DNA of 31,478 bases from an uncultured archaeon (GCA_964468895.1 CAYXWT010000004.1:1-31478), one strand, 5' to 3'; shown: positions 8,124 through 29,715, counted from the first letter of the stretch. Numbers and translations are program-made. The notes: generated from the sequence alone by a model not told the origin.

Positions 8124-8867
8124 TTATTTTTTCCTTTGTATTCTTACATAGAAAACTTCTATTTTGTCATAATCAGGTCTACTATAAGAATCATATGTTC
8201 CTTTAACTAGAGAAAATTCATATTTTAAATCTAAATTGTGTGTTTTATTAAAAACTTCTATCATTCTTGGAGCTATTTTTAATATTTTTTCAATTGCATT
8301 TTTTTTTAAATTGTTTATAAGTGCAACTTCTACAAATGCTCTACCTTTTTTACTTAACATAAGTGCTGTTTGAAATAAAGTGTATGGTGGAGATGTACTA
8401 TAATAACCAACACTTGCAGGAGCTACAATTACATCATATTTCCCTTTTACTTTATTAATAATTTCAGAATCAGCTATAGAGTTTATATGTTCAAAAACTT
8501 TTTCTCTAGAAAGATCTTCTCTTATTATTTTCTTTTCTACAAGTTTTTTATCTAATGTTGATTTAAATATATTTAACACATCAATAGTAGGTTTTATACC
8601 TATACTTTCTAATTCTTTTTTTAATATAGCTGTATCATATCCAATGCCAGGACCTAATATCATAACTTCAGGGTGTTTTTTAAGATCATTTAAAATAAAA
8701 TTAGAAACCTCTTCTTTAAGTTTATAACGATATATTTCTTCATATCTATTTCTATTACCATTAAATTCAGAGCCCCAGTTTTCAAATCCTTTTTTAATTT
8801 TAGGTCCTATATGATGATGTATATCTCTTTTATTTTCGAAAGGTTTTATCTTTGTTTTACGTATCAT
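8124..8867 (-). CDS. family A paralog P0: Rossmann/class-I SAM-methyltransferase-like protein, function unknown
   Basis: Most divergent member of the family found at 14968-18915. Shares 'FENWG..NRYE', 'VMILGPGIGYD', 'PTIDVLN', 'FEHIN', 'YDVIVAPASVGYY' and 'LFQTALMLSKKGRAFVEV'. Confidence 0.5.
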   Translation of the reverse strand: MIRKTKIKPFENKRDIHHHIGPKIKKGFENWGSEFNGNRNRYEEIYRYKLKEEVSNFILNDLKKHPEVMILGPGIGYDTAILKKELESIGIKPTIDVLNIFKSTLDKKLVEKKIIREDLSREKVFEHINSIADSEIINKVKGKYDVIVAPASVGYYSTSPPYTLFQTALMLSKKGRAFVEVALINNLKKNAIEKILKIAPRMIEVFNKTHNLDLKYEFSLVKGTYDSYSRPDYDKIEVFYVRIQRKK

Positions 8868-11998: not shown

Positions 11999-12059
11999 GT
12001 CAATCTATTGACTGGTTTTATGGTCAAACCGGCTAACGGGTTGCCCGGTCCATATGTTT
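11999..12059 (+). promoter_or_regulatory. GC-enriched structured leader ending in the conserved 11-mer TCCATATGTTT, upstream of ATPase copy 1
   Basis: Palindrome gtcaat-ct-attgac (11999-12012), ggttt/aaacc stem (12014-12030), accgg/ccggt stem (12028-12049) and the 11-mer at 12049-12059. The same 11-mer sits at the same 38-nt distance from the ATG of ATPase copy 2. Confidence 0.4.
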
Positions 12060-13394
12060 AAATATATTTCTATTGCTATATTTCTTATGGATTATACTAA
12101 GATATTAAAAATTTGGAATCCCTGGTGGATTTCAAAGAAAGTAGATTTAAATAAATTTAAAATTGAACGAAATAAAACTAAAGAAATAATTAATTTTTTA
12201 AAAATTAGAGAAATTATAGTTTTAAAAGGTATAAGACGTTCAGGAAAATCAACTATTATTTATCAAATTATAAATTATCTTATAAATCAGAAAAAAATAA
12301 ATCCCAAAAACATCTTTTATTTTAATTTTGATCAACCTTTAAAAAGTAATGAATTAGAAGTTATGGATGATCTTTTAAATAATTATTTAGAAATTAATAA
12401 TCCAAAAGGAAAAATATATGTTTTTTTAGATGAAATTCAAAATGTAGAATTATGGGAAAGGTGGATTAAAAAAGAATATGATTTAAAAGAAAAAAGTATT
12501 AAATTTATTATAACTGGATCTAATAATTCTTTACTTTCAAATAAAATTTCTACTGCTTTAACTGGAAGAATTATTTCTATAAATATATATCCTTTATCTT
12601 TTTTAGAATATTTATTATTTAAGAATTATAAATATAAAGATCTTGATATAGATGAAAATAAAATAAAATTTCATTTTAATAAATTTTTGAAAAAAGGTGG
12701 ATTTCCAGAAGTAGTTTTAGAAAAAGATGATTATATTAATAAGAAAAGATTATTAGAATATTTTGAAAATATTATTTTAAGAGATATAATTACAATTAAA
12801 GATGTAAATGAAACTAAAAAATTAAAAGAACTTGCTCATTATCTAATTACAAATATTTCTTCACAAATAACTTATAGTAAATTAGGAAAAGTATTTGGTC
12901 TTAATAAAGCTACTGTAAAAGAATATGTTTCTTATATTGATCAATCTTTTTTAATTTTTGAGGTTAATTTTTATTCTTATTCTTTAAAAAAAAGTGTAAG
13001 TATACAAAAACCTAAAAAAATATATTGTATTGATAATGGTTTGAGAGAAGCTGTTTCTTTTAAATTTTGGGATGATAATTCAAAACTTATTGAAAATTTA
13101 GTTTTTGTAGATCTTTTAAGAAGAGGATTAGATGTTTATTATTGGTTTTCTAAAAATGAAATTGATTTTGTAGTTTCAAAAAATAATAGACTTATTTTGA
13201 TTAATGTATGTTATTCCAATGAAATTCCTGAAAGAGAAATTAAGGGTTTTAAAGAATTTGAAAAAGAATATAAGAACATAGATCAAAAAATAATAATTAC
13301 TAAAAATTTAGAAAAAGAAGAAGATGGTGTTTATTATATTCCTATATACAAATGGATTTTAAAAGATAATTTGTTATTTTATAAAGAGATTTAG
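12054..13394 (+). CDS. AAA+ ATPase, COG1373/DUF4143 family (AAA_14 plus DUF4143 plus C-terminal nuclease-like domain)
   Basis: Walker A 'GIRRSGKST' and Walker B 'VFLDEIQ'. 'GGFPE', 'RDI' and 'YCIDNG' blocks are shared with 26739-27998. The likely true start is the in-frame ATG at 12087 ('MDYTKILKIWNPWW'). Confidence 0.8.
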   Translation: MFKYISIAIFLMDYTKILKIWNPWWISKKVDLNKFKIERNKTKEIINFLKIREIIVLKGIRRSGKSTIIYQIINYLINQKKINPKNIFYFNFDQPLKSNELEVMDDLLNNYLEINNPKGKIYVFLDEIQNVELWERWIKKEYDLKEKSIKFIITGSNNSLLSNKISTALTGRIISINIYPLSFLEYLLFKNYKYKDLDIDENKIKFHFNKFLKKGGFPEVVLEKDDYINKKRLLEYFENIILRDIITIKDVNETKKLKELAHYLITNISSQITYSKLGKVFGLNKATVKEYVSYIDQSFLIFEVNFYSYSLKKSVSIQKPKKIYCIDNGLREAVSFKFWDDNSKLIENLVFVDLLRRGLDVYYWFSKNEIDFVVSKNNRLILINVCYSNEIPEREIKGFKEFEKEYKNIDQKIIITKNLEKEEDGVYYIPIYKWILKDNLLFYKEI

Positions 13395-13795
13395 CAACAA
13401 CAATAACTGCAGGAGCAAGACTATTTTTAACTATTGCTCAAACAATAGCCAAAAATGAAAAATGTCCTCATCATTATATGGATACAGATAGTATTTTTGT
13501 AGATACAAAAATATCTAGTAAAGTTATTGATTATTTTAAAAATCTAAGTCCTTATTCAAATAATATTCCTTTACTTAAAAAAGATAAAGAAAATGTTTAT
13601 TTTTATGTGATTTGTAGTAAAAGATATTGTCTTTATAGATTAGATAAAAATAAAAGAGATATTATTGATTATAAATTACATGGATTAGGTCATTTAATTA
13701 ATCCTTGGAAAAATAAAATAAAGAATTTGCAAATCCTTTCGTATATTAACAATAATATTATCGTCCATATTAATATTGTGGAGAGTAATTGTTAA
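13385..13795 (+). pseudogene. C-terminal remnant of a family-B DNA polymerase
   Basis: The frame opens at 13385, overlapping the ATPase stop. It reads 'ATTITAGARLFL..(18 aa)..HHYMDTDSIFV', i.e. the ITxxGR block followed by motif C YxDTDS. 'CSKRYCLY' sits at the KKRY/KxY motif position. The exonuclease domain and motifs A and B are missing. Confidence 0.6.
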
Positions 13796-13857: not shown

Positions 13858-13930
13858 AGCCTCTAGTGGGATTTGAACCCACGACCTACAGTTTACAAGA
13901 CTGTTGCTCTAGCCACTGAGCTATAGAGGC
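13858..13930 (-). tRNA. tRNA-Thr (anticodon UGU), 73 nt, no encoded CCA
   Basis: Reverse complement folds as a cloverleaf: acceptor GCCTCTA/TAGAGGC, D-arm GCTC-AGTGGCTA-GAGC, anticodon arm ACAGT-CTTGTAA-ACTGT, variable AGGTC, T-arm GTGGG-TTCAAAT-CCCAC, discriminator T. Confidence 0.92.
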
Positions 13931-14023: not shown

Positions 14024-14746
14024 TTAAGAAATATACCAAGGATCAATAATGTATATTTCTTTTGTTTTAGTATTATAAAGTAAGTTGTGAGGAAATAAAT
14101 CTTGTATATTTGTTGGACCAGTAACATTAGTATTTTTAGATTTTATATATTCTTGATTATTTAAACCTTTATCTATTATTGATTCTATTATTTCTCTTTT
14201 TCTTGAAATGCTAATACTTTCTTTTAGAGTTAGTTTGTTATTATCTGCTAATTCTTTAATTGTTTGAAGATTAGTAAAATCATATACTATATATGCTTTT
14301 TTTGATTTAATATTTAAATATGATAGATGAGCATCAATAATATTAATTCCTAAACTTTTTAGTATTTTTATGGCTTTCATTTCATAAAAACCATTTAAAT
14401 GAGCTTTAAGTTTGTTATCAAAAGTAGAACATTTACTATTAGGTGTTGGTTCTTCATTTATTTCTTTTACAAAATATTTTTTATTATTTTTATTAATTTT
14501 AATTATATACATTTCATTAGTGCTTGTTTTGATCTTATTACTTACTTTTTCTATTGTAAATCTACCTTTTGGGTCTTTATATTTGGGAAGTTTTTTTTTA
14601 TTCATTTCACGAAAAGCTTTAAGTAAACCTTTATTTTCTGAAAGTATTTTTCGTCCTTTTGGAGAGTAAGCTAGTTTATGATTTTCTGTTTCTAGGAACT
14701 TTGATTTTGTAATACTATATCTTTTCATATTTATATCTAAATACAA
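14024..14746 (-). CDS. family B paralog K3: atypical protein-kinase-like fold protein with the most canonical catalytic motifs
   Basis: 'KKYFVKEI' (VAIK-like Lys), 'YEMKAIKILKSLGINI' (alphaC-like), 'AYIVYDFTNLQTI' (hinge), 'DLFPHNLLY' (DxxxxN, about 14084-14101) and 'IYIIDPW' (metal-binding Asp, about 14042-14044). This arrangement resembles RIO/Bud32/APH/Kdo-kinase-type atypical kinases. Confidence 0.5.
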   Translation of the reverse strand: MYLDINMKRYSITKSKFLETENHKLAYSPKGRKILSENKGLLKAFREMNKKKLPKYKDPKGRFTIEKVSNKIKTSTNEMYIIKINKNNKKYFVKEINEEPTPNSKCSTFDNKLKAHLNGFYEMKAIKILKSLGINIIDAHLSYLNIKSKKAYIVYDFTNLQTIKELADNNKLTLKESISISRKREIIESIIDKGLNNQEYIKSKNTNVTGPTNIQDLFPHNLLYNTKTKEIYIIDPWYIS

Positions 14747-14967: not shown

Positions 14968-15744
14968 ATGTTAATAAGAAAAAAAAATTTAAAAAAATTT
15001 GGGCAGAAAAGAGAAGTCAATGAATCTGTAAATTATATTTTAAGTAGTAAAAAAAAAGGATTTGAAAGTTGGGCTTATAAAGGAGATAGATATAGATATA
15101 AAGTTGTTTTTGAATTACAACTTAAAAAGAAGCCACTTAAATATTTGCTTGATAATAATATAAAAAACCCTGAAATTATGATGTTAGGGCCATCAACTGG
15201 AGAATATATTCTAGAATTTAAAAAAAGACTTTTAGAAAATAAAATTAAACCAATAATTGATTGCTTTTCTTTAAAAAATGAATTAAATAAAAATGTAGAA
15301 AAGGAAGTTAGATTAAATCTATTTGGTAAAGGAGCTTTTGAAAAATTAAATACAAAAGCAAATAATCTTGATTTAAAAGAAATTCAAAGAAATCTTATAG
15401 ATAAATATAATTTAATTATAGCACCAATGAGTATAGGTGTTCATACAAAGTATCCTATAAATGCTTTATTTACTTCTGCATTAATGCTTAGAAAAGGTGG
15501 TAAAGCATATGTTGAAATTCCTGCAATAGATAGAGATTATTTAGAGTATATGAAATCGCAAAAACAGTCACGAAGTAAATATGATAAACAGTTATTTTAT
15601 TCAAAATTACAAGCAACTAAAGTAGAAAAAATTTTTGATAGGTTTGTTAATTCTTATAACCCTAAATTAAAATTTAAATTAGAAGCTGTTGATACTTTTT
15701 ATCATGAAAAATATGTGTTTATAGAAATTACTAGAATACAATAA
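14968..15744 (+). CDS. family A paralog P1: Rossmann/SAM-methyltransferase-like protein
   Basis: 'LKKFGQKRE', 'FESWAYKGDRYRYK', 'IMMLGPSTGE', 'PIIDCFSL', 'YNLIIAPMSIGVHTKYPINALFTSALMLRKGGKAYVEI', 'NPKLKFKL' and terminal 'FIEITRIQ'. Confidence 0.55.
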   Translation: MLIRKKNLKKFGQKREVNESVNYILSSKKKGFESWAYKGDRYRYKVVFELQLKKKPLKYLLDNNIKNPEIMMLGPSTGEYILEFKKRLLENKIKPIIDCFSLKNELNKNVEKEVRLNLFGKGAFEKLNTKANNLDLKEIQRNLIDKYNLIIAPMSIGVHTKYPINALFTSALMLRKGGKAYVEIPAIDRDYLEYMKSQKQSRSKYDKQLFYSKLQATKVEKIFDRFVNSYNPKLKFKLEAVDTFYHEKYVFIEITRIQ

Positions 15745-15767
15745 ATTTAATTTTTTAATTATTTCAT

Positions 15768-16532
15768 TTGAGATTTATGCCTGTTACTAAAAAAATTGGA
15801 AAAAAAAGAACTGCAATTAAAAATTGTAATATTGTAAAAGCAAGTTCTAAAGAATCTTGGCCTTGTAATGGACAAATGGAAAGATTTAAAGAGATATTTT
15901 TTGTAAATTTATATAAAAAACCTTTAAATTTTTTACTAAAACTAAAAAAGCAGAATCCAAATGTTATGTTCCTTGGTTCTGGAAGAGGAGGAACTATTTC
16001 TGAATTTCTAAAATATACTTCTAAATTTAAAATAAAGCCATTAGTAGATACTTTTTCTTTAACTAAAAATCTATCTAAAAGTGTTTTGTCAAAAGTTAGA
16101 AAAGATTATTCAGCAAATATAGGTTTTGAAGAACTAAATACAAAAAACAGTAAATATAAGTTTTTAGAAAATAAATATGATCTTATAGTAGGTGCTATGA
16201 GTGTGGGATATCATACAAAGTATCCAGCAAATGCACTTTTTACTTCTGCGCTAATGTTAAAAAAAGGTGGAAAGGCATATATTGAAATAGATGATTTAAA
16301 ACAATTTTTACAATTAAATAAAACTCAATTTTTTAAGTTTCTTAAAAATTCTAATATTAATAAAGAAGAAAAATATTCTCAAAAACAGATTTTATTTTTA
16401 GAGAATGTATTTAATAGAATGGTAAATTCTTATGATTCTAAACTAGAATTTTCTTTTAACTTTATTAAATATAAAAATAAAATGTTTTCTAGTGTTGATT
16501 CTGTATTTGTAGAAATAGAAAGAATTAAATAA
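15768..16532 (+). CDS. family A paralog P2
   Basis: 'VMFLGSGRGGT', 'VDTFSLTK', 'YDLIVGAMSVGYHTKYPANALFTSALMLKKGGKAYIEI' and terminal 'FVEIERIK'. The probable start is ATG 15777 ('MPVTKK'); the ORF track uses TTG 15768. Confidence 0.55.
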   Translation: MRFMPVTKKIGKKRTAIKNCNIVKASSKESWPCNGQMERFKEIFFVNLYKKPLNFLLKLKKQNPNVMFLGSGRGGTISEFLKYTSKFKIKPLVDTFSLTKNLSKSVLSKVRKDYSANIGFEELNTKNSKYKFLENKYDLIVGAMSVGYHTKYPANALFTSALMLKKGGKAYIEIDDLKQFLQLNKTQFFKFLKNSNINKEEKYSQKQILFLENVFNRMVNSYDSKLEFSFNFIKYKNKMFSSVDSVFVEIERIK

Positions 16533-16551
16533 AGTCTGATTAATAATAAAT

Positions 16552-17301
16552 TTGATTATTATGCCTATTTTAAGAAATAAAAAAGTTATAACTAAATCAA
16601 TTTTAAAAAAATTTGGTAAAAAAAGAGAACCTTTTGATTATGTGTCTAAACAAATTATTGATAAGAATGAGGTGTGGGGACATAATGGATCCAAAAATAG
16701 ATTTAAATCTATATTTCTTAAAAACTTAGAGAGAAAACCAATTTCTTTTTTACAAAAACTTGGAAAAGAAAAGCCAACAGTTATGTTTTTAGGACCTGGT
16801 AAAGGTGGTACAATAACTGAATTTCTAAAATATACTTCTAAATTAAAAATAAATCCTGTTGTAGATGTTTTTGCTTTAACTAAAAATTTGTCTTTAGAAG
16901 CAAGTTCTAAAATTAGAACAGATTATTCTTCAGATGTTCCTTTTGAACATTTAAATATTAAAAATAGTAAATATAAATTTTTGGAATAAAAATATGATCT
17001 TGTAATTAGTGCTATGGGTGTTGGGGCACACACAAAATATACCTCTAATGCTCTTTTTACTTCGGCTTTAATGTTACAAAAAGGTGGTAAGGCTTATATT
17101 CAAACAAATATGTGGAATTATCTAGTAAAAAATTCATATGATGCTAAAAAAACAAAATTACTTATTAAAAGTGTATTTAATAGATTGGTTGTTTCTTATA
17201 ATAAAATCTTAGAAAAATCTAATCTTAACAAAAGAAAATATTCTTTTAATTTTATTGAAAGTAATAATTTAGGATTTGTTGAAATAGAAAGAATTAAATA
17301 A
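16552..17301 (+). pseudogene. family A paralog P3, interrupted by an in-frame TAA (16987-16989)
   Basis: ORFs 16552-16989 and 17014-17301 share one frame. Read through, they give '..KYKFLE*KYDLVISAMGVGAHTKY..', where paralogs have 'FLENKYDL'. The C-terminal third is shorter and more divergent but still ends 'FVEIERIK'. Confidence 0.7.
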
Positions 17302-17317
17302 ATTTAAGAATTTAATA

Positions 17318-18103
17318 GTGATGATTATTATGCCTGTTTTGAAAAAATTTGGAAAAAAAAGAGAAACTAACTTAAAAGTTAAAGAGTGGCTTAGTATAGG
17401 TTGTGAAAAATGGCGTTGTAATGGACTAAAGGAAAGATATAAACAGATTTCTGAAGCACTTGGTGGTATTCATGTTTATTTTTTAGTTTGTCGTCGAAAA
17501 TCACATCCTATTGTGATGTTTTTAGGTGCTGGAGTAGGAGAAACTATTTCTGAATTTAAAAAACATCTTTTGAAACATAAGATACATCCAACTGTAGATG
17601 TTTTTTCTTTAACTAAAGATTTATCTTCAGAGGTTAATTCTAAAACAAGACGTGATTATTCTAATAATTTGCCTTTTGAACATTTAAATATGAAAAATAG
17701 TGCTTTTAAAAATTTAGAAAATAAATATGATTTAGTTATAGGGGCCATGAGTGTTGGTGTACACACTAAATATCCTGCAAACTCTTTGTTTACTTCTGCT
17801 TTAATGCTTCAAAAAGGTGGTAGGGCATATATTGAAGTTGTAGACTTTTTAAAAAAGAATGGTGGTATATCTACTATAAAAGAACATAAAAAACTTTTAG
17901 AAAGAAATAAATCTTTTAGTTTTAGTAAGTATGAACGTTATAGTCTTTCATATATGAAACAAATTTTGGTTTTTAAAAAGGTTTTTTTAAGAATGATTGA
18001 AGTATATAATCCTAAATTAGAATTCTCTATTAAAATGATTGATAATAATTTGAATCATTTTACTTGTCAAATGAATTTTATAGAAGTAGAAAGAATTAAA
18101 TAA
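17318..18103 (+). CDS. family A paralog P4
   Basis: 'LKKFGKKRE', 'VMFLGAGVGET', 'VDVFSLTK', 'YDLVIGAMSVGVHTKYPANSLFTSALMLQKGGRAYIEV', 'NPKLEFSI' and 'FIEVERIK'. The probable start is ATG 17330 ('MPVLKKFG'). Confidence 0.55.
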   Translation: MMIIMPVLKKFGKKRETNLKVKEWLSIGCEKWRCNGLKERYKQISEALGGIHVYFLVCRRKSHPIVMFLGAGVGETISEFKKHLLKHKIHPTVDVFSLTKDLSSEVNSKTRRDYSNNLPFEHLNMKNSAFKNLENKYDLVIGAMSVGVHTKYPANSLFTSALMLQKGGRAYIEVVDFLKKNGGISTIKEHKKLLERNKSFSFSKYERYSLSYMKQILVFKKVFLRMIEVYNPKLEFSIKMIDNNLNHFTCQMNFIEVERIK

Positions 18104-18126
18104 TTTTTAATATATAATAGATACTG

Positions 18127-18915
18127 ATGTTTATGTCTCTTTTAAGAAATAAAAAAGTTTTGCTAAAACCAATTTTAAAAAAATTTGGTAAATTAAGAAA
18201 ACCATCTTTATCATTAGAGGAATATTTAGTTTCTAAAGCTAAGGAATCTTGGGGTTATAATGGAACTAAAGATAGATTTAAAACTATATTTTTTGAACAT
18301 TTACAAAAAAAACCTTTTCGTTTTTTAATTAAATTAAGAAAAGAAAAACCAAACGTTATGTTTTTAGGTGCTGGTAAAGGAGAAGCTTTATATCAATTTA
18401 TAAAATTTAGTTCTAAATTGAAATTAAATCCAATAGTAGATGTTTTTTCCTTTACTAAAAGCTTAACTAAAGATGTAAAATCTTTAGTTAATAAAGATTA
18501 TTCTTCTAGAACTCTTTTTGAACATTTAAATGTAAAGAAAAGTAAATTTAAGTTTTTAGAAAATAGATATGATCTTGTTGTAGGTGCTATGAGTGTTGGT
18601 GAACACACATATTATCCAGCAAATGCTATTTTTACATCTTCTTTAATGTTGTTAAAAAATGGAAAGGCTTATATTGAGGTTGAAGATTTAAGAGATCGTT
18701 TTACTGTTAAAGAGTATGATGCATATATATCGTATTTAAAAAAATTTCCTAAACAACATCATGATGAATTATATTATCAAAAACAAATAGATAATTTAAA
18801 AATTATATTTAAGAGAATGGTTTATTCTTATAATCCAAAATTAGAATTTTCTTTTAAAATCATTAAAAATCCCAAAACTGCTATTAATTTTGTAGAAATA
18901 GAAAGAATTAAATAA
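18127..18915 (+). CDS. family A paralog P5
   Basis: 'ILKKFGKLRK', 'ESWGYNGTKDRFK', 'VMFLGAGKGE', 'VDVFSFTK', 'YDLVVGAMSVGEHTYYPANAIFTSSLMLLKNGKAYIEV', 'NPKLEFSF' and 'FVEIERIK'. Confidence 0.55.
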   Translation: MFMSLLRNKKVLLKPILKKFGKLRKPSLSLEEYLVSKAKESWGYNGTKDRFKTIFFEHLQKKPFRFLIKLRKEKPNVMFLGAGKGEALYQFIKFSSKLKLNPIVDVFSFTKSLTKDVKSLVNKDYSSRTLFEHLNVKKSKFKFLENRYDLVVGAMSVGEHTYYPANAIFTSSLMLLKNGKAYIEVEDLRDRFTVKEYDAYISYLKKFPKQHHDELYYQKQIDNLKIIFKRMVYSYNPKLEFSFKIIKNPKTAINFVEIERIK

Positions 18916-18936: not shown

Positions 18937-20004
18937 TTATTTCTTTAATTCTATGGTTTGAGTAGGGAAAGCAAATTCAATTTTTTCTTTTTCAAAACGA
19001 GTTTTTATTTCTGTGTTTATTTTGTCTTTTATTTGTATGTATTTTCCCCAATTTAATTCGTTTATATAATATGTGACTTTTACATCTAATGAATAACTAT
19101 TAAATTCATCAAATCTTATATAAAAATCAGGAAGTATGTTTTTATTGTTTTTAAGTATTTCTTTAACTATTGCTTTTGCTTTGTTTAATTTAGCTGTACT
19201 TGTGCTATATGTTAAACCAAGAGTTGTATCTATTCTTTTTGAAGATCTATACGATATGTTCGAAATAGTACTACCTGCAATTTTACTATTTGGCATAATC
19301 ATTAAAGTACCATTTGTTTTTTGTATTTGGGCAGATCTTAATCCTACTGCTTTAACAGTTCCTACTTCTCCATTAATTTCTACAAAATCTCCTATATTAA
19401 AGTTTTTTTCTCCAAATAATACTACACCGCTTATTAAATTTTCTAGTGCATCTTTAGCTGCAAGAGCTACTGCAATACCACCTATTCCAAGTCCTGCTAG
19501 TAATGCTCCTACATCATAACCAAAATTAGATAATACTAATACACCTGCAAAAGCTACAATTACTATGTTTGTTAAAGTTTTTAATAATGGAACTAATTGA
19601 TCATCATATTTTGTTTTTGTTTTCTTTGCTATTTTTGTAATATATTCATCTATTATTCCTAATATGAATTTTGCTAAAAACCAAGCTATACAAAATACAT
19701 ATAATAAAAATACAATTTTGGTAATTATGTTTTGAAAACTTGATGATACTGTTAAATATCTAAAACCAATTTCAAAAAATATTATTGTTATTATTAACAT
19801 AAATGGAAGTGGTTTTTCCATAATACTAACTAATATATCATCAAACTTTGTTTTTGTTTTTTCTGCAATTTTTTTAAATACGTTTTTACTAAAATAGGAT
19901 GCTATTTTGCTAACTATTATTCCTATAAATATAAATAATATAAACATTAAAATTTGTTTTAAAGTATTTCCGAAAATCATAATTTCTAACATAATTAATC
20001 TCAC
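18937..20004 (-). CDS. MscS-family small-conductance mechanosensitive channel
   Basis: N-terminal TM helices, pore-helix region 'LAGLGIGGIAVALAAKDALENLISG', and the beta-domain 'GDFVEINGEVGTVKAVGLRSAQIQKTNGTLMIMPNSKI'. Confidence 0.85.
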   Translation of the reverse strand: MRLIMLEIMIFGNTLKQILMFILFIFIGIIVSKIASYFSKNVFKKIAEKTKTKFDDILVSIMEKPLPFMLIITIIFFEIGFRYLTVSSSFQNIITKIVFLLYVFCIAWFLAKFILGIIDEYITKIAKKTKTKYDDQLVPLLKTLTNIVIVAFAGVLVLSNFGYDVGALLAGLGIGGIAVALAAKDALENLISGVVLFGEKNFNIGDFVEINGEVGTVKAVGLRSAQIQKTNGTLMIMPNSKIAGSTISNISYRSSKRIDTTLGLTYSTSTAKLNKAKAIVKEILKNNKNILPDFYIRFDEFNSYSLDVKVTYYINELNWGKYIQIKDKINTEIKTRFEKEKIEFAFPTQTIELKK

Positions 20005-20217
20005 TTTATTAATTTTTTAAAATGTAGTTATAGATATGTTTTATATCTATAGATTATTTATAATAAACTATTTATAAATGTTTTTGTAACTATATAAATA
20101 ACTAGTATATAATATTTGTAATAATATCTTATTTTGTAGTCTACTTTCAAAGATATATTCTTCTATTTAAAATAAAATTGATTCTATAAATATAAATATT
20201 TTTTAATTTGATAAATT

Positions 20218-20937
20218 ATGATTAAAAAAAAATTAAAAGTCAAATCTAAAGTTACAAAATCTACTGTTGTAGAATTGAAAGATGTTACTAAGACTTATCT
20301 TATGGGTGAAGTTGCAGTTCATGCTTTAAATGGTGTTAATTTAAAGATAAAACAAGGTGATTTTGTATCTATTATGGGTCCAAGTGGATCTGGAAAATCT
20401 ACTATGATGCATATTGTTGGTGCTTTAGATTTACCAAGTACTGGTCAAACTTTTATTAAAGGAATAGATTTGAGTACTTTAAGTGAAAATGAACTTTCTC
20501 AAATAAGAGGAAAAACAATTGGTTTTGTTTTTCAAGAATTTAATTTAATTCCTACTCTTACTGCTCTAGAAAATGTAAGATTACCTATTTTGTTTCAAGA
20601 TATAGAAGAAGATAGAACTGATTGTTGTATTGATTTATTAAAATTAGTAGGTCTAGGTGATAGAGTTGATCATAAACCTAGTGAACTTAGTGGTGGGCAA
20701 CAACAAAGGGTTGCTATTGCAAGAGCTTTGGCTAATGATCCTGAAATAATTCTTGCTGATGAACCTACTGGTGCACTTGATTCTAAATCTGGTATTGAAA
20801 TACTTGATTTACTTGAAGATTTAAATAGAAAAGGTAAAACTGTTATTATTATTACTCATGATAAATCTTTAACTAAATATACTAAAAGAAATATTTCTTT
20901 AAAAGATGGTAAAGTTATTAAAGATATTTCAAAATAA
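20218..20937 (+). CDS. ABC transporter ATP-binding protein (MacB/LolD-type)
   Basis: Walker A 'GPSGSGKST', Q-loop 'FVFQEFNL', signature 'LSGGQQQRVAIARAL', Walker B 'IILADEPTGALD' and H-loop 'ITHD'. Confidence 0.92.
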   Translation: MIKKKLKVKSKVTKSTVVELKDVTKTYLMGEVAVHALNGVNLKIKQGDFVSIMGPSGSGKSTMMHIVGALDLPSTGQTFIKGIDLSTLSENELSQIRGKTIGFVFQEFNLIPTLTALENVRLPILFQDIEEDRTDCCIDLLKLVGLGDRVDHKPSELSGGQQQRVAIARALANDPEIILADEPTGALDSKSGIEILDLLEDLNRKGKTVIIITHDKSLTKYTKRNISLKDGKVIKDISK

Positions 20938-20955
20938 AAAGTTTGTAAGATATTT

Positions 20956-22149
20956 ATGAAAGGAATGTTATCTTTTATTTTTAAAAATATAAAACGAAGA
21001 AAACTTCGAAGCTGGCTTACAATTATTGGTATAATTGTAGGTGTTTTTGCAATAGTTTCGCTAATGTCTTTATCTCAAAGTTTAGAAAATAAAATAAGTT
21101 CTAAATTTGATCAATTAGGTGCAAGAAAAATAGAAATTGTTTCTAAATATAGTTCTTATGGAACTAGTTCTTCAAGCCAAGCACTTAGTGAAGATGATAT
21201 TGCTGTTCTTGAAAAAATTCCAGATCTTGAAAAAGTAATTGGTTCTATTAAAAGTAGTGTTTCTATTGAATATAATAGAATAAATAAACATCTTACTTTA
21301 ACTGGTTATGATTGTGATAATATTGAAGATATGTTTTATCAAGAAAATTTAGAAATATTAAAAGGAAAACAAATAGTTTCTGAAAAATCTAAAGAAATTG
21401 TTATAGGTTATGGTTTTTATGGTGATTATGATAATGTTTTTGGTAAAAAACTAGATGTTGGAGATTCTTTAGAAATTAATAGTCATTCTTATAAAATTGT
21501 TGGTATTTTAGAAGATACTGGTGGACAAGGTAATTTTAATATTTATATTTCTATGACTAATATTAGAGATATAACTGGTGCAGAAGATAAAGTTGTTGAT
21601 AAAATATATGCAATTGTTAAAGAAAATAAAGTTCTTGAAGAAGTTTCTGAAAGAATACAAAATAAACTAGAAAGTTTTAGAGATTCTGATGATTTTAGTA
21701 TTACAACTCCTCAAAAGACTGCAGAAAAAAGAAAAGAAACTTTAAAAGTAGTTTCAATAGTAGTAATTGGAATTGCTGCAATTTCTTTATTAGTTGGTGG
21801 TATTGGAATTCTTAATTCTATGTATACTTCAGTAGTTGAAAGAAAAAAAGAAATTGGAGTTATGAAAGCAATTGGTGCTAAAAGAAGTGATATTTTAAAA
21901 CTTTTTTTATTAGAATCTGGTATTATTGGTTTTGTAGGTGGTCTAATAGGCTCTATTGTTGGTTTTGTAGTTGCATTTTTAGTTAGTTTTGTTGCAACAT
22001 TATTACAATTTGAAATTGTTTTTTCTTTAAGTTTTGATATTTTGTTAATAGCACTTGGTTTTTCATTTGTTGTTGGAATTATATCTGGCTTTTGGCCAGC
22101 TTATAAAGCTTCAAAACAAGAACCAGTTGAATGTTTAAGAGAAGAATAA
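20956..22149 (+). CDS. ABC transporter permease, FtsX/MacB-type (MacB_PCD plus FtsX domains)
   Basis: N-terminal TM 'LRSWLTIIGIIVGVFAIVSL', a large extracytoplasmic domain, and a C-terminal FtsX block 'GGIGILNSMYTSVVERKKEIGVMKAIGAKRSDI'. Confidence 0.85.
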   Translation: MKGMLSFIFKNIKRRKLRSWLTIIGIIVGVFAIVSLMSLSQSLENKISSKFDQLGARKIEIVSKYSSYGTSSSSQALSEDDIAVLEKIPDLEKVIGSIKSSVSIEYNRINKHLTLTGYDCDNIEDMFYQENLEILKGKQIVSEKSKEIVIGYGFYGDYDNVFGKKLDVGDSLEINSHSYKIVGILEDTGGQGNFNIYISMTNIRDITGAEDKVVDKIYAIVKENKVLEEVSERIQNKLESFRDSDDFSITTPQKTAEKRKETLKVVSIVVIGIAAISLLVGGIGILNSMYTSVVERKKEIGVMKAIGAKRSDILKLFLLESGIIGFVGGLIGSIVGFVVAFLVSFVATLLQFEIVFSLSFDILLIALGFSFVVGIISGFWPAYKASKQEPVECLREE

Positions 22150-22253
22150 AGTTACATTTTATAAATAAAATGTTCTTTATATTTGTTGTATAATATATTT
22201 AAAATAAATTATAAAAATTAAAATAAAATTTAGTATTTAGAGGTGGAATTAAA

Positions 22254-23525
22254 ATGAATATAAAAAATTTAAAAACAATATTTAGTATAGTACTAATATT
22301 AGGATTATTTGCATTTTCTGGTCTTGTTAATGCTCAACAAGATTATGATGTGATAAATTTAGATGCTAGTAATTATAATTATGATCCAGCGCCAATTACT
22401 CCTGGTGATGAGTTTGAATTGTGGATACAATTAACAAATAATAGTAATAATGCTGCTGAAAATATAGATTTTCTTTTAGAATTAGAATATCCTTTTAGTT
22501 TAGCAGATTATGATGAATTAAATGGAAATATAAGTTATATTGCACCATATCAAACTAAAATTTTAAAATATAATTTAAAATCTGATTTTTTAGTAAATTC
22601 AGATACTTACACTATTAAATTTAAATATAAAAGAAGTGGAGTAGATGTATATAATGTTGAAGAATATAATATAGATATTACTTCTCAAAATGCAATTATA
22701 GATATTATATCTTCAGATATAGAAAAAGTAGATATTGGAAAGTCTTCTAATATAAATTTAAATTTAAAAAATTTAAGTTTACAAAATGCAAAAGATGTTT
22801 TTGTAACTTTAAATAACTCTAGTGATGATAAAATAAAAGTTTTAAATTTAACTACTAAATACATTGCAAAACTAAATGCTGGACAAGAAATTAATTTGCA
22901 ATATAGTGTTTTAGCAGATAGAACTATTGAAAATAAATCTTACTCTCTTCCTATTACTATTTCATATTCAGATAGCCAAGGAGATTATAATATTTCTAGA
23001 ACAGTAGGTTTAGAGATTATTGGAAATCCAGAAGTTTTACTTAATATTATAAGTATAGGAGAGAATTATAAATTATATACTAATGATGTTCAAGAAATTG
23101 AATTTGAAATCTATAATGTTGGAAATATTGATGCTGAATCTGTTTATGTTGAAGCAAATGGTGATTTTTTAGTAGCTTCAAGTAAATATTTTGTAGGTTC
23201 TATTGAAAAAGATAATTATGATAGTGTAGATTTAGAATTAAATATAAAAGATATGCCCTCTGGAACTTATAATTTAGAAGTTATAATAAATTATAAGGAC
23301 GGAGATTTAATTGAACAAAAAATAACTCAAAATATACCAATAGAAGTTGTTAATAAATCTAAAGGTGGAAATACCTTAGTAAGTGTTGTAAGTACTATTG
23401 GATATATTATTGCAGTAATATTTGGTTTGTCTTTGATAATTATTATTATAAGATGGTTACTAAAAATACTTGTATTTCCAGCTTTTGGAATATCTAGTAT
23501 TTCAAAAAACAAAAAAAAGAAATAA
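22254..23525 (+). CDS. secreted, C-terminally anchored surface protein with repeated beta-sandwich-like (CARDB/COG1361-like) modules
   Basis: Strong GAGGTGG RBS. Signal-like N-terminus 'IFSIVLILGLFAFSGLVNAQ', repeated '..N.GN..A..V.V..' style segments, a C-terminal hydrophobic helix and a poly-Lys tail. The domain call is tentative. Confidence 0.4.
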   Translation: MNIKNLKTIFSIVLILGLFAFSGLVNAQQDYDVINLDASNYNYDPAPITPGDEFELWIQLTNNSNNAAENIDFLLELEYPFSLADYDELNGNISYIAPYQTKILKYNLKSDFLVNSDTYTIKFKYKRSGVDVYNVEEYNIDITSQNAIIDIISSDIEKVDIGKSSNINLNLKNLSLQNAKDVFVTLNNSSDDKIKVLNLTTKYIAKLNAGQEINLQYSVLADRTIENKSYSLPITISYSDSQGDYNISRTVGLEIIGNPEVLLNIISIGENYKLYTNDVQEIEFEIYNVGNIDAESVYVEANGDFLVASSKYFVGSIEKDNYDSVDLELNIKDMPSGTYNLEVIINYKDGDLIEQKITQNIPIEVVNKSKGGNTLVSVVSTIGYIIAVIFGLSLIIIIIRWLLKILVFPAFGISSISKNKKKK

Positions 23526-23591
23526 ATTATTTATTTTTCTTTTTTTTAAAAACATAATTTTTTTAGTTAGAACTTTTAAAAAGATATTTTT

Positions 23592-24818
23592 ATGCATAAA
23601 TTAAAATTTACTAATTTGGTAAATCTTACTATAAAAAATATATTTAGAAGAAAAGTAAGATCTACTCTTACTATTCTTTCTGTAATTATAGGTATTGCAG
23701 CAGTAATTTCTTTGATATTATTAAGTGATGGTTTATTTAATGCTATTGAAGGGCAGTTTGATGTTTTAGGTTCAAATACTATATTTGTATTTCCTGTACA
23801 TTTTCAACAAGGTAATCCTGTAGAAATAGTTTCAAGATTATCTGTTGAAGATAAATTAACTTTAAAAGATGTTGAAGCTCTTAGAAAAATAAAAAATGTA
23901 AAAGAGGTATATTCTTTTACATATAAAACTAGTGAGTTTGAATATAAATATGAAACACAATATGCTTTAACTGTTGTTGCTCCTGCTGATGAATGTGATG
24001 GTTTATTTGAAATTATGCAATTAGATTTTTCTTCTGGAGAAGGATTTAATGGAAAAACTGGTAAGAAAGTTATAATTGGATCATATTTTGCAAATGATCT
24101 TTTTGATCATAAAATTAGTGTTGGTAATAATGTAAAATTAAATAATATTGATTTTAAAGTAATTGGAATACTTGAACCTGTTGGTAATGTAGATGATGAT
24201 AGTACTGTTTATATTACAAAAGAAACTGCAGATAAAGTACTTGTTTTGGACTCAGAAGTTACTCAAATAATTGCCAAATCTGCTGGTGATGCTGATGTTA
24301 GTGATGTTAAAGATGATATAGTTGATAGACTTGAAAAAACACATAGTGAAGATGCATTTATGGTATATACTTCTCTTCAAATGTTAGAAATGATTCAACA
24401 GATTTTAATGGTTCTTAAAATTATTTTGATATCTATTGCTTTAATTTCTCTAGTAGTTGGTTCTATTGGAGTTATGAATTCTATATTTACTTCAGTTTTA
24501 GAAAGAATTGGAGAGATTGGTATTTTAAAATCCATTGGTGCTAAGATATATGATATTGTATTTTTATTTGTTTTAGAGTCTGTAATTTTATCTATTATTG
24601 GAGGATTAATTGGTTTGGTTTTAGGTATTGGTATAGCTAAATTAGTTGAACTTTATATTATTAGTTTGAATTTTGATATGTTACATATTATAGTTAATGC
24701 TAATATTATTATTCTGGCAATTTTTATATCTATATTGGTTGGTTTTATAGCTGGTATATTACCTGCAATTAGCGCTGCAAGATTAAAACCTGTAGATGCA
24801 CTTAGAAAAAATATTTAA
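23592..24818 (+). CDS. second FtsX/MacB-type ABC permease
   Basis: Same architecture as 20956-22149: 'VRSTLTILSVIIGIAAVISL', then 'GSIGVMNSIFTSVLERIGEIGILKSIGAKIYDI', ending '..RLKPVDALR'. Confidence 0.85.
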   Translation: MHKLKFTNLVNLTIKNIFRRKVRSTLTILSVIIGIAAVISLILLSDGLFNAIEGQFDVLGSNTIFVFPVHFQQGNPVEIVSRLSVEDKLTLKDVEALRKIKNVKEVYSFTYKTSEFEYKYETQYALTVVAPADECDGLFEIMQLDFSSGEGFNGKTGKKVIIGSYFANDLFDHKISVGNNVKLNNIDFKVIGILEPVGNVDDDSTVYITKETADKVLVLDSEVTQIIAKSAGDADVSDVKDDIVDRLEKTHSEDAFMVYTSLQMLEMIQQILMVLKIILISIALISLVVGSIGVMNSIFTSVLERIGEIGILKSIGAKIYDIVFLFVLESVILSIIGGLIGLVLGIGIAKLVELYIISLNFDMLHIIVNANIIILAIFISILVGFIAGILPAISAARLKPVDALRKNI

Positions 24819-24880
24819 AAAAATAAACACTAAACTGTAAAAAAACAAAAATAAAATTAGTAAAAGAAGATGTATAATAT

Positions 24881-25522
24881 ATGAGTAAATTAATGAAACC
24901 TGAACAAGAATTTAAAGATCCTAATGATTTTTATAATTTTAGAGAAGTTGAAAGATATAGTAAAAACTCTGGTATGAGAAAAACTCAAGAGTTATTAACC
25001 CAGATTGCACTGGATTTAGTAAATTTTGATAAAAAGAAAAAATATAAAGTTTTAGATATTGGCTGTGGTACTGCTTTTTCTTTAAATTATATATTTAAAT
25101 TAAAACAAAATAAAGAAGATTTAATAGGTTGTGACCCTGCTAAAGAAATGTATAAACATTCTAGAAAGAAAGGTTATAGAATCTATAATATGGGCTTTGA
25201 AAATATAAAAAAGATAAGTTATTATTACACTGCAAAATATTTTGATTTAATAATTTCTATTTCTGCTCTTAATTGGGTTTGTGCAAATAAAAAAGAATTA
25301 AAATTAAAAAATGAAATTAAAAAGATTGGTAAAGAACTTCATAAACTAATAAAAGATGATGGACAAATAGTAATGCAATTTTATGTTGATTCTCCTCAAG
25401 TATATGATTATGTGTGTTCTAGCTTTTCTAGATGTAATTTTGATGTTGAAAAATATATCTATAATGAAAAAAGTGCTATAAAAAGAAAATACTTTGTAAT
25501 ACTACGTAAAAAAGTCCTATAA
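24881..25522 (+). CDS. Bud23/WBSCR22-like class I SAM-dependent methyltransferase
   Basis: 'KPEQEFKDPNDFYNFREVERYSKNSGMRKTQ' resembles the Bud23 N-terminus (PE..PPE.FY...EA.KY..NSRM..IQ). Also 'VLDIGCGTAFS' (motif I), 'ISISALNWVCANKKE' (compare ISISAVQWLCNANKK), 'IVMQFY' and a C-terminal 'KRKYFVIL'. Confidence 0.65.
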   Translation: MSKLMKPEQEFKDPNDFYNFREVERYSKNSGMRKTQELLTQIALDLVNFDKKKKYKVLDIGCGTAFSLNYIFKLKQNKEDLIGCDPAKEMYKHSRKKGYRIYNMGFENIKKISYYYTAKYFDLIISISALNWVCANKKELKLKNEIKKIGKELHKLIKDDGQIVMQFYVDSPQVYDYVCSSFSRCNFDVEKYIYNEKSAIKRKYFVILRKKVL

Positions 25523-28043: not shown

Positions 28044-28080
28044 TGCACAAATTTTGTTTATTTGTGCACTTGAAGTGCAC
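28044..28080. repeat. two overlapping perfect palindromes at the truncation point of ATPase copy 3
   Basis: tgcacaaat (28044-28052) pairs with atttgtgca (28060-28068). gtgcactt (28064-28071) pairs with aagtgcac (28073-28080). Confidence 0.7.
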
Positions 28081-28399
28081 AATTGGTAGGTTATATGAAA
28101 ACGTAGTTTTTATACAACTTTTAAGAAGAGGTAAAAAAGTTTATTTTTTTAAGGATAAACTTAATTATGAAATAGATTTTATAACTTTAGAGAAAAATAA
28201 AGTTTCTTCTTTAATACAAGTATGTTATGATTTAGATATTGTAAAGACTAAAGAAAGGGAAATAAGGGGTTTATTATCAGGATTAAATGAATTTAAACTA
28301 AAAGAAGGAGTAATGATAACTCGAGATTTAGAAAAAGAAGAAAAAATAGATAATAAATTAATTAGATTTATTCCTTTATGGAAATGGTTGTTGGAATAA
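28064..28399 (+). pseudogene. 5'-truncated DUF4143 ATPase (C-terminal nuclease-like domain only)
   Basis: 'YENVVFIQLLRRGKKVYFF..EIDFI...IQVCYDL..KEREIRGL...IPLWKWLLE' aligns with the last ~105 aa of 26739-27998 and 12054-13394. No Walker motifs are present, and the GTG start lies inside a palindrome. Confidence 0.65.
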
Positions 28400-29562: not shown

Positions 29563-29674
29563 AATAAAAATATATTTTTTACTTCTACTTTAACTACTGT
29601 TAGAATTTTGCTGAACAAATAATTTTATTTTGTTAACTTAAGATAAATAATTTATAAATTTAATTTTTATTTTA

Positions 29675-29715
29675 ACCTAATTTTGCTATTTACTACCTAA
29701 CTTCGCCATTTGACT
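29675..29715. repeat. tandem imperfect 20/21-nt repeat whose second unit is the left arm of an inverted repeat
   Basis: 'acctaattttgctatttact' (29675-29694) and 'acctaacttcgccatttgact' (29695-29715). A related 'tgtttgccatttgctattt' lies at about 29746-29764. Confidence 0.6.

What the first reader, a model, noticed from the sequence alone, without database searches (positions are those of the whole stretch)
15520..18792. Conserved catalytic-like core with a length- and sequence-hypervariable segment in every family A copy
Between the conserved '..KGGKAYIE' strand and the conserved '..SYNPKLEFSF..FVEIERIK' end, the copies become essentially unalignable by eye. They also differ in length. P1 reads 'PAIDRDYLEYMKSQKQSRSKYDKQLFYSKLQ', P2 'DDLKQFLQLNKTQFFKFLKNSNINKEEKYSQKQ', P4 'VDFLKKNGGISTIKEHKKLLERNKSFSFSKYERYSLSYMKQ' and P5 'EDLRDRFTVKEYDAYISYLKKFPKQHHDELYYQKQ', while P0 and P3 are much shorter. 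The flanking core is highly similar; P2 and P3 look roughly three-quarters identical over about 110 aa by eye. In class I methyltransferases, insertions after the central strands commonly form the substrate-recognition cap. The pattern therefore fits diversification of target specificity on a fixed catalytic scaffold. No reverse transcriptase or template repeat is present in the window, so a DGR mechanism is not indicated.
Basis: partly seen in the sequence, partly recalled or inferred. Interest (0 to 1): 0.6.

Follow-up and report, generated by a model that had tools for sequence, protein, structure and literature searches.

The report
Methyltransferase-like paralogue array with variable cap
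A very AT-rich, probably DPANN-type archaeal genome carries five tandem genes plus one dispersed gene of an undescribed methyltransferase-like family; their conserved cofactor-binding core is interrupted by a helical "cap" insertion that differs completely between paralogues but is inherited stably, so this is ordinary paralogue divergence and not an active hypervariation system.

Summary
Six family A copies (P0–P5) share a conserved core. Pairwise identity drops from about 0.7 to about 0.12 immediately after the "KGGKAYIE" strand, over 8–39 residues of differing length.

AlphaFold2 models (pLDDT 86–89) and Foldseek place the family in the class I SAM-methyltransferase fold. A Gly-rich loop and the β2 Asp are conserved, but no member reaches a Pfam threshold or matches any NCBIfam model.

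The variable segment lies between β5 and αE and is predicted as ordered helices. This is the position of the cap or lid in CouO, Coq5, CmoA and UbiG.

It is not actively hypervariable:
- Orthologues in other metagenomes keep each paralogue's own segment and length.
- Pooled dN/dS is 0.71, against 0.29 for the core.
- There is no template repeat, reverse transcriptase, inverted repeat or gene conversion.
- Two other cap-side elements, the first N-terminal helix and the β6–β7 hairpin, vary just as much.

New context: the family has about 120 clusters among 1.8 billion representatives, and the only named hosts are archaeal MAGs. It is linked to an ABC–FtsX–CARDB–FtsX module. Copies embedded in that operon lack the cap. 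P3 is a pseudogene, and array order differs between lineages.

Substrate specialisation is plausible but untested.

The parts
8124..8867 (-). P0, the dispersed and most divergent family A copy (247 aa). Its cap segment is only 8 aa (8301-8324).
   Evidence: ORF; family HMM E = 3e-73; about 30% identical to the array copies; segment coordinates.
14968..15744 (+). P1, first array copy (258 aa). Variable cap segment at 15520-15606 (29 aa).
   Evidence: Orthologue P0015/L008_a is 79% identical in the core and 41% in the segment.
15768..16532 (+). P2 (254 aa; likely true start is the ATG at 15777, 'MPVTKK'). Variable cap segment at 16290-16382 (31 aa). Second variable patch, the β6-β7 hairpin, at about 16461-16502.
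   Evidence: AF2 model: pLDDT 88.8; β5 is E164-174; cap helices H177-180, H185-194, H199-209; αE is H211-222. Orthologues P0001 (95% identical) and P0002 (78%) keep the same 30-aa segment.
16552..17301 (+). P3, a pseudogene with an in-frame TAA at 16987-16989. Short cap segment at 17107-17148 (14 aa).
   Evidence: The same truncated product (P0016) is recorded from NCBI, JGI and ENA. Intact orthologues P0007 and P0009 exist.
17318..18103 (+). P4 (261 aa). Longest cap segment, at 17840-17956 (39 aa).
   Evidence: AF2 model: pLDDT 86.2; segment is a loop plus H187-196 and H204-217, with pLDDT 82-88. Coordinates.
18127..18915 (+). P5 (262 aa), last array copy. Cap segment at 18682-18780 (33 aa).
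   Evidence: Identical protein P0004 occurs on five other contigs.
18937..25522 (.). Conserved neighbouring module: MscS (18937-20004, minus strand), ABC ATPase (20218-20937), FtsX/MacB permease 1 (20956-22149), CARDB-like membrane protein (22254-23525), FtsX/MacB permease 2 (23592-24818), and an ordinary Methyltransf_11/25/31 protein (24881-25522).
   Evidence: Pfam hits. The same module lies beside or around family A in L005, L007, L010, L017, L018, L025, L026, L028, L030, L031, L033, L034 and L037-L041.

Best explanation
Family A is a small, previously undescribed family of roughly 250-aa class I (Rossmann-like) SAM-methyltransferase-fold proteins. Its only named hosts are archaeal MAGs.

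The conserved β1-β5 core carries the canonical cofactor contacts: a Gly-rich loop after β1 (G70/G72/G74), an invariant Asp at the tip of β2 (D94), and a conserved 'DYS' at β3.

The variable segment is a helical cap inserted between β5 and helix αE. Along with the first N-terminal helix and the β6-β7 hairpin, it lies on the side of the sheet where the C-terminal ends of the strands point. In class I methyltransferases the cofactor and the methyl acceptor bind on that side.

The gene was duplicated in tandem beside a conserved ABC/FtsX/CARDB/MscS module. The duplicates then diverged by ordinary substitutions and indels, fastest in these three structurally permissive cap-side elements. Each paralogue ended up with its own stably inherited cap. 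No active diversification mechanism is involved.

Shown here: the fold, the motifs, the position and order of the segment, vertical inheritance, the rate differences, and the absence of DGR, cassette or gene-conversion signals.

Inferred only: SAM binding and catalysis; that the cap lines the acceptor pocket; and that the different caps give the paralogues different acceptors or partners (my estimate for this last step is about 0.45).
For: - **Fold.** AF2 pLDDT is 88.8 and 86.2, with pTM 0.89 and 0.87. Foldseek gives 253 PDB hits at E <= 1e-3; the top hits are nearly all class I methyltransferases (CouO/NovO, UbiG, Coq5, BamL, BioC), with a best E of 5e-9. A profile hit to the methyltransferase 3dtn has E = 3e-4.
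- **Motifs.** L69, G70, G74, D94 and E121 are invariant in 19 sequences. G67/G71 are invariant, and D91, D110 and S112 are at least 90% conserved, in 63 sequences (P0001 numbering).
- **Conservation map.** Family-wide entropy is lowest at β1, β2, β4 and β5 (1.35-1.6 bits). It is highest at VAR1 (3.44), the hairpin (3.75) and H18-26 (3.26).
- **Cap position in relatives.** In CouO, Coq5 and CmoA, a two-helix cap and the N-terminal part flank the cofactor site and are where these enzymes differ most (PMC5289526). In UbiG, the 165-187 insertion covers the SAM pocket and can be deleted (PMC4796655).
- **Stable inheritance.** Segment lengths are 30/30/30 (P2 group), 38/33/34 (P4), 13/13 (P3) and 28/29 (P1). 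Within-group identity is 32-90%, against 3-19% between groups.
- **Rates.** Pooled ω is 0.29 (core), 0.39 (C-terminal part), 0.59 (N-terminal part) and 0.71 (VAR1).
- **No gene conversion.** The nearest relative of each copy is the same in the N-terminal, core and C-terminal regions.
- **General indel hotspot.** Across 120 representatives, the β5-to-αE stretch spans 0-66 aa (SD 14), while core length has SD 5.3.
Against: - No member reaches a Pfam gathering score (best 22.2 bits against a cut-off of 27) or matches any NCBIfam model. Family assignment therefore rests on predicted structure and motifs.
- TM-scores to solved methyltransferases are only 0.45-0.5.
- The acidic residue usual in motif I (hhD/EhGxG) is hydrophobic here.
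It is a topological inference.
- P3 is a pseudogene. P0, P3 and the operon-embedded clade lack most or all of the cap, so the cap is dispensable for the fold and perhaps for function.
- ω near or above 1 in the P1 and P4 pairs (1.3 and 2.0, small counts) fits relaxed constraint as well as adaptive change.
Confidence: 0.7

Rival explanations
1. Neutral drift in a dispensable surface insertion. The paralogues are functionally redundant, and the cap is simply the part of the fold that tolerates substitutions and indels. No specificity differences exist.
For: - The site is an indel hotspot family-wide, spanning 0-66 aa.
- A whole clade, plus P0 and P3, do without most or all of the cap.
- Pooled ω is 0.71, with 1.3 and 2.0 in the P1 and P4 pairs.
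- One array copy is already a pseudogene.
- Array content differs between lineages.
Against: - In the P2 group the segment has ω of about 0.2 and is 77-90% identical, with its length unchanged at dS of about 0.5-0.8.
- The segments are predicted as ordered amphipathic helices with pLDDT 82-92, not loops.
- Four intact paralogues are maintained in a very small, AT-rich genome.
Confidence: 0.3
2. The cap is a protein-protein interface, either a homodimer contact or a contact with the ABC/FtsX/CARDB module or the membrane. Paralogue-specific caps would then keep the duplicates from cross-pairing, or direct them to different partners, and would not select the methyl acceptor.
For: - In CouO the dimer interface is formed by the cap helices, and Coq5 and CmoA also dimerise (PMC5289526).
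- In UbiG the equivalent insertion binds membrane and gates SAM entry (PMC4796655).
- Family A is genomically tied to a membrane transporter module.
- The operon-embedded clade lacks the cap.
Against: No interaction was tested or modelled here. The cap-less, in-operon correlation is a single clade and so a single event.
Confidence: 0.15
3. Active, targeted diversification of the segment by a DGR, by cassette exchange or gene conversion from silent copies, or by an invertible shufflon.
For: Only the sharp boundary between the conserved flank and the divergent segment, plus one mosaic P3/P4 copy in L002.
Against: - No reverse transcriptase appears in any window ORF scanned.
- No second copy of any segment longer than 18 nt exists in the window.
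- Inverted repeats are at most 39 nt, A/T-rich and 70-89% complementary.
- All copies are in direct orientation.
- Orthologues keep their segments.
- Nearest relatives agree across all regions of each gene.
- The L002 mosaic begins at a contig end, carries a frameshift, and may be an assembly chimera.
Confidence: 0.03
4. The proteins are non-catalytic SAM-binding or pseudo-enzyme subunits. They would act as regulatory or scaffolding parts of the transporter module, and the cap would have no role in catalysis.
For: - The family is below threshold for every curated methyltransferase model.
- The motif I acidic residue is missing.
- No invariant catalytic-type residue follows β4: the His of 'HT' is replaced in P0, L007 and P0018.
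- In one clade the gene sits inside the transporter operon.
Against: The SAM-contact motifs (GxGxG, β2-Asp, β3-Asp) are the most conserved positions. Many genuine small-molecule methyltransferases lack a conserved catalytic base.
Confidence: 0.1

Closest known systems
CouO/NovO, Coq5, CmoA and YecO: class I methyltransferases with a two-helix cap domain
   Same: They are the best structural matches (Foldseek E = 5e-9 to 1e-6). Like family A, they have a Rossmann-like core with a β2-Asp contacting the ribose and a helical cap. These enzymes differ mainly in the cap and the N-terminal part, with the cofactor site between the two (PMC5289526). Family A varies in the same two places.
   Different: Sequence identity is only 13-14% and TM-scores are about 0.5. 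There is no significant sequence-level hit. Their catalytic residues were not shown to be conserved here. They are single genes in biosynthetic pathways, not tandem arrays. The family A substrate is unknown.
E. coli UbiG, with its 165-187 insertion
   Same: It is among the top structural hits. Its insertion covers the methyl-donor pocket, gates SAM entry, binds membrane, and can be deleted without loss of fold (PMC4796655). This parallels the cap-less natural variants in family A. From my memory of the UbiG sequence, the insertion directly follows the 'LVKPGG…' β5 strand, as VAR1 follows 'LKKGGKAYIE'. I did not test this.
   Different: UbiG's own paper calls the site 'between β4 and α10'. Membrane binding by family A was not tested. 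There is no relationship to ubiquinone biosynthesis.
Putative methyltransferase MM_2633 of Methanosarcina mazei (PDB 3dtn)
   Same: It is the only solved protein found by sequence (profile E = 3e-4 with A1, 0.058 with A2). The alignment is collinear from motif I through β5 and into a helical stretch after β5.
   Different: The match is weak, and the protein has no known function.
Tandem arrays of paralogous class I methyltransferases with different specificities, such as the mycobacterial mmaA1-mmaA4 mycolic-acid methyltransferases (from my own knowledge, not tested here)
   Same: Adjacent paralogues on a common SAM-binding scaffold have diverged in their substrate-side elements.
   Different: The family is unrelated at the sequence level. 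In family A, different functions for the paralogues are only hypothesised.
Diversity-generating retroelement target proteins
   Same: A short stretch of extreme sequence difference lies within an otherwise conserved protein.
   Different: There is no RT and no template repeat. The differences include indels and lie between old paralogues, and the segment is stable in orthologues.

Membership tests
Class I (Rossmann-like) SAM-dependent methyltransferase superfamily | α/β fold with the strand succession β1-αA-β2…β5-αE-β6-β7 and a C-terminal β6-β7 hairpin | tested here: met
   AF2 models have pLDDT 88.8 and 86.2, and their elements appear in this order. Foldseek returns 253 PDB hits at E <= 1e-3, and the top hits are nearly all class I methyltransferases. 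This is a predicted structure, not a solved one.
Class I (Rossmann-like) SAM-dependent methyltransferase superfamily | Gly-rich motif I (GxGxG) in the loop after β1 | tested here: met
   The motif reads 'VMFLGxGxG'. G70 and G74 are invariant in 19 and in 63 sequences. The middle Gly is replaced by S or A in a few members. The acidic residue that often precedes the motif is hydrophobic here.
Class I (Rossmann-like) SAM-dependent methyltransferase superfamily | Acidic residue at the tip of β2 that binds the ribose hydroxyls | tested here: met
   D94 ('VDVF', at the end of E92-96) is invariant in 19 sequences and at least 90% conserved in 63. Its role is as described for CouO Asp70 (PMC5289526).
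Class I (Rossmann-like) SAM-dependent methyltransferase superfamily | Significant match to a curated methyltransferase sequence model (Pfam clan or NCBIfam) at its own threshold | tested here: not met
   The best match is Methyltransf_23 at 22.2 bits, against a cut-off of 27. Only 4 of 63 members give even weak hits, and NCBIfam gives none.
Class I (Rossmann-like) SAM-dependent methyltransferase superfamily | Binds SAM and transfers a methyl group | not testable with these tools
   This needs biochemistry.
Cap-bearing small-molecule methyltransferases (CouO/Coq5/CmoA/UbiG type) | Helical insertion after β5 that packs over the cofactor or acceptor pocket | tested here: inconclusive
   Ordered helices lie between β5 and αE in both models. 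Alignments to CouO are collinear and near full length (238 columns).
Diversity-generating retroelement system | Reverse transcriptase gene near the variable gene | tested here: not met
   No RVT family appears in any window ORF of 90 aa or more.
Diversity-generating retroelement system | Template repeat nearly identical to the variable region | tested here: not met
   The best non-self match of any segment is at most 18 nt of A/T-rich sequence. Only this window was searched, not the whole genome.
Invertible shufflon or phase-variable specificity cassettes (hsdS-like) | Inverted repeats flanking exchangeable segments, plus a site-specific recombinase | tested here: not met
   All copies are in direct orientation. 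Inverted repeats are at most 39 nt and 70-89% complementary, consistent with chance in 21% GC DNA. The Pfam scans found no recombinase.

The most novel reading that the evidence does not exclude
Family A is a dedicated cytoplasmic accessory of an archaeal MacB-type ABC/FtsX-CARDB envelope module. The cap-less form works inside that operon. In the window's lineage the gene left the operon, has a helical cap, and expanded into a rapidly rearranging tandem array. The paralogue-specific caps would let the array methylate different exported or cell-surface substrates. That would make it a diversifiable surface-modification toolkit in a host-dependent archaeon with a reduced genome.
Probability: 0.12. 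Interest if true: 0.6.

Novelty: new member of a known kind. Interest (0 to 1): 0.33.

Why it matters
A conserved SAM-binding scaffold with a divergent cap is the textbook way class I methyltransferases diversify, so the finding taken alone is ordinary.

Three things give it modest value.
- **The family is unannotated.** It matches no Pfam or NCBIfam model, has about 120 clusters among 1.8 billion representatives, and all its members are labelled hypothetical.
- **The copy number is unusual.** Six copies is a lot for such a small, AT-rich genome.
- **The family is consistently linked to a transporter cluster.** It sits beside or inside an ABC-FtsX-CARDB-FtsX cluster. That linkage gives a concrete starting point for finding the function of both the family and the transporter module.

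The natural series of cap-less, short-cap and long-cap forms is a ready-made set for testing what the cap does.

Tried and rejected
- **DGR.** No RT and no template repeat.
- **Shufflon or cassette exchange.** No meaningful inverted repeats and no recombinase.
- **Gene conversion homogenising the core.** Rejected, because cores cluster by paralogue type across lineages and nearest relatives agree in all three regions.
- **Alternative genetic code.** I considered this for the in-frame TAA in P3 and for the apparently ORF-free right end of the window. All other genes read open in table 11. The right end holds a 408-codon ORF (30254-31477) that runs off the window, which the ORF lister omits.
- **PolB fragment.** The ORF at 13478-13795 ('MDTDSIFV') has no support in Pfam, PHROGs or the PDB.
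- **Family B as a kinase.** Only a non-significant resemblance to KSR kinase domains, E = 0.15.
- **Metagenome scan with the wide alignment A4.** It failed because no stretch was conserved enough. Repeating it with A2 worked.
- **Cap lengths from the profile alignment.** The alignment mis-registered the short forms. Motif-anchored counting replaced it. Two regex mis-hits were corrected by eye: L038 = 9 and window P4 = 48.
- **Source organism.** Cluster records gave no name or accession. The archaeal, probably DPANN attribution rests on related MAGs.
- **Literature.** Searches found no description of the family or the cluster.


Full report
**What is there**

The window is 21% GC. It contains six homologous ORFs:

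| Copy | Coordinates | Strand |
|---|---|---|
| P0 | 8124-8867 | minus |
| P1 | 14968-15744 | plus |
| P2 | 15768-16532 | plus |
| P3 | 16552-17301 | plus |
| P4 | 17318-18103 | plus |
| P5 | 18127-18915 | plus |

P1 to P5 form a head-to-tail array with spacers of 16-23 bases. P3 carries a single in-frame TAA at 16987-16989, where the other copies read 'LENKYDL'. The same truncated product is on record from three sources. Intact orthologues P0007 and P0009 exist, so the stop is a real nonsense mutation.

**Checking the observation**

A MAFFT alignment of the six copies shows identity among P2-P5 of 0.6-0.8 from the 'VMFLG' strand to 'KGGKAYIE'. Identity then falls to 0.11-0.12 over alignment columns 201-240. 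Among P1-P5, the lowest 40-column window starts at column 201 and directly abuts the highest window, at columns 162-201. Identical pairs are 12% inside the segment and 49% outside it (Fisher p = 7e-43). Segment lengths are 8, 29, 31, 14, 39 and 33 aa for P0 to P5. Nucleotide homology between copies stops one base before each segment and resumes at its end. A second variable patch lies near the C-terminus, and the N-terminal region is also divergent.

**What the proteins are**

- **Curated models.** Pfam gives only sub-threshold Methyltransf_23 matches (best 22.2 bits, cut-off 27). None of 63 family members passes a threshold, and NCBIfam has no model.
- **Sequence to PDB.** A profile of the six copies hits the class I methyltransferase 3dtn at E = 3e-4.
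- **Predicted structure.** The AlphaFold2 models of P2 and P4 are confident (pLDDT 88.8 and 86.2; pTM 0.89 and 0.87). Both show the class I succession β1, αA, β2, a short β3, β4, αD, β5, αE, β6, β7.
- **Structural neighbours.** Foldseek finds 253 PDB chains at E <= 1e-3. The top hits are nearly all class I methyltransferases, such as CouO/NovO, UbiG, Coq5, BamL and BioC. TM-scores are only about 0.45-0.5.
- **Conserved positions.** The most conserved positions are the Gly-rich loop after β1, the Asp at the tip of β2 (D94), a 'DYS' at β3, and the 'LKKGGKAY' β5. These match the canonical cofactor contacts, including the β2-Asp described for CouO (PMC5289526).

I therefore place the family in the class I fold on structural and motif grounds. 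Catalysis is untested.

**Where the segment sits**

In P2 the segment (residues 175-204) follows β5 (E164-174) and precedes αE (H211-222). It is predicted as helices H177-180, H185-194 and H199-209, with pLDDT about 91. In P4 it is a loop plus H187-196 and H204-217, with pLDDT 82-88. It is therefore not a disordered linker.

The three most variable elements, both family-wide and among the paralogues, are this cap, the first N-terminal helix (H18-26) and the β6-β7 hairpin. By the established topology of the fold, all three lie at the C-terminal edge of the sheet, where cofactor and acceptor bind. This is an inference, because I had no model coordinates to measure.

In the closest solved relatives, a two-helix cap and the N-terminal part flank the cofactor site and are the parts that differ most between enzymes. 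The cap helices there also form the dimer interface (PMC5289526). In UbiG, an insertion at residues 165-187 covers the methyl-donor pocket, gates SAM entry, binds membrane, and can be deleted (PMC4796655).

**Is it hypervariable?**

No. The large protein search found only 18 relatives. Several are orthologues of individual paralogues from other metagenomes.

- **Orthologues keep their own segment.** Lengths are 30/30/30 (P2 group), 38/33/34 (P4), 13/13 (P3) and 28/29 (P1). Identity within groups is 32-90%, against 3-19% between groups.
- **Rates.** Nei-Gojobori estimates pooled over six orthologue pairs give ω of 0.29 (core), 0.39 (C-terminal part), 0.59 (N-terminal part) and 0.71 (segment). 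The P2 group's segment is at about 0.2. The P1 and P4 pairs are at 1.3 and 2.0, but on small counts.
- **No gene conversion.** The nearest relative of every copy is the same in the N-terminal, core and C-terminal regions, apart from one mosaic. Gene conversion therefore does not explain the conserved core.
- **No diversification machinery.** There is no reverse transcriptase, template repeat, recombinase or meaningful inverted repeat.

The segment is the least constrained part of an old set of paralogues. It is not a site of ongoing diversification.

**Family-wide picture**

An exhaustive profile search of 1.84 billion representative proteins finds 123 clusters at E <= 1e-3 and 58 at E <= 1e-30. 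Many alignments break at profile position about 180, where the segment begins. Across 120 representatives, the β1-β5 core length has SD 5.3, while the β5-to-αE stretch spans 0-66 residues. The site is thus a general indel hotspot of the family. Named genomes carrying relatives are archaeal MAGs, including Candidatus Forterrea multitransposorum, of the Iainarchaeota.

**Genomic context (new)**

The array lies next to MscS, an ABC ATPase, two FtsX/MacB-type permeases flanking a CARDB-like membrane protein, and an ordinary methyltransferase.

- **Beside the module.** The same module lies beside family A in L005, L010, L017, L018, L025, L026, L028 and L030.
- **Inside the module.** In L034, L037, L038, L039/L041 and L040 (Forterrea), family A lies inside it, in the order ABC, FtsX1, family A, CARDB-like, FtsX2. 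The genes are co-oriented and abut or overlap. L031 and L033 are short contigs that show only family A followed by the CARDB-like gene.
- **Cap length tracks position.** These seven copies have 9-10 residues between β5 and the αE motif, so they have no cap. All other copies have 12-48 (with two regex errors corrected by eye).
- **One clade.** The seven copies form one clade (bootstrap 88). This is therefore a single event of unknown direction.

The linkage suggests a functional tie to the transporter module, but that is association only.

**Array dynamics**

- **Copy number.** Related lineages carry one copy (L010, L017, L018), two (L008: P1' and P2'), or four or more.
- **Order.** The L020/L013/L014/L021 lineage has the order P0006, P3', P2', P4' in four independent assemblies, against P1, P2, P3, P4, P5 in the window.
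- **Uneven divergence.** Its members are 96%, 92% and 78.5% identical in nucleotides to P2, P3 and P4. Its first copy has no counterpart in the window.
- **A mosaic copy.** L002 is 98% identical to the window downstream. It has a P3-type 5' part joined to a P4-type 3' part, with a 4-base deletion. This is consistent with unequal crossing-over, but the copy starts at a contig end and could be an assembly chimera.

**Verdict**

'Hypervariable' should be replaced by 'paralogue-specific'. Target diversification remains a reasonable but untested inference, with neutral drift and an interface role as live rivals.

This is a new, unannotated family within a well-known kind of enzyme architecture. Interest is modest, and comes mainly from the transporter linkage and the expansion in a reduced archaeal genome.

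Noticed in passing
window 16987-16989 (within P3, 16552-17301): An in-frame TAA turns P3 into a pseudogene. The same truncated 142-aa product is recorded from NCBI, JGI and ENA, and intact orthologues (P0007, P0009) exist in related lineages.
   Followed up: yes
window 1602-2405 (+), 2448-3251 (+), 14024-14746 (-); L016 1-1137: A second lineage-specific paralogue family ('family B', about 240-267 aa). One copy is divergently adjacent to the family A array, and two copies sit beside the array in L016. It has no Pfam, NCBIfam or PHROG match, only a non-significant resemblance to KSR kinase domains (E = 0.15).
   Followed up: partly
L007/L040 8072-13168; L034, L037, L038, L039, L041; window 18937-25522: A conserved gene cluster, ABC ATPase - FtsX/MacB permease - (family A) - CARDB-like membrane protein - FtsX/MacB permease, with MscS and an ordinary methyltransferase nearby. 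It recurs across distant archaeal lineages. I found no description of it in the literature searched.
   Followed up: partly
L002 1-716: A mosaic family A copy. It is P3-type over about the first 300 bases and P4-identical from about base 600, with a divergent middle part and a 4-base deletion causing a frameshift. It is either an unequal crossover product or an assembly chimera, since it starts at the contig end.
   Followed up: partly
L020 99-2876, L013, L014, L021 compared with window 14968-18915: Array order and membership differ between related lineages: P0006-P3'-P2'-P4' against P1-P2-P3-P4-P5. Divergence of shared members is very uneven (96%, 92% and 78.5% nucleotide identity).
   Followed up: partly
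window 13478-13795 (+), beside tRNA-Thr 13858-13930 (-): A 105-aa ORF beginning 'MDTDSIFV', which by eye recalls polymerase B motif C. It has no hit in Pfam, PHROGs or PDB sequences, so the lead is unsupported.
   Followed up: partly
window 12054-13394, 26739-27998, 28064-28399: Two full AAA_14/DUF4143 ATPase paralogues, plus a 111-aa C-terminal DUF4143 fragment immediately downstream of the second. A Fic-domain gene follows at 28606-29562.
   Followed up: no
window 30254-31477 (+): A 408-codon ORF runs off the right end of the window, so the ORF lister does not show it. About 1 kb of it is 66% identical in nucleotides to an ATP-dependent DNA helicase gene of a Mycoplasma phage (MW353172.1). 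About 650 bases upstream (29600-30250) have no ORF.
   Followed up: partly
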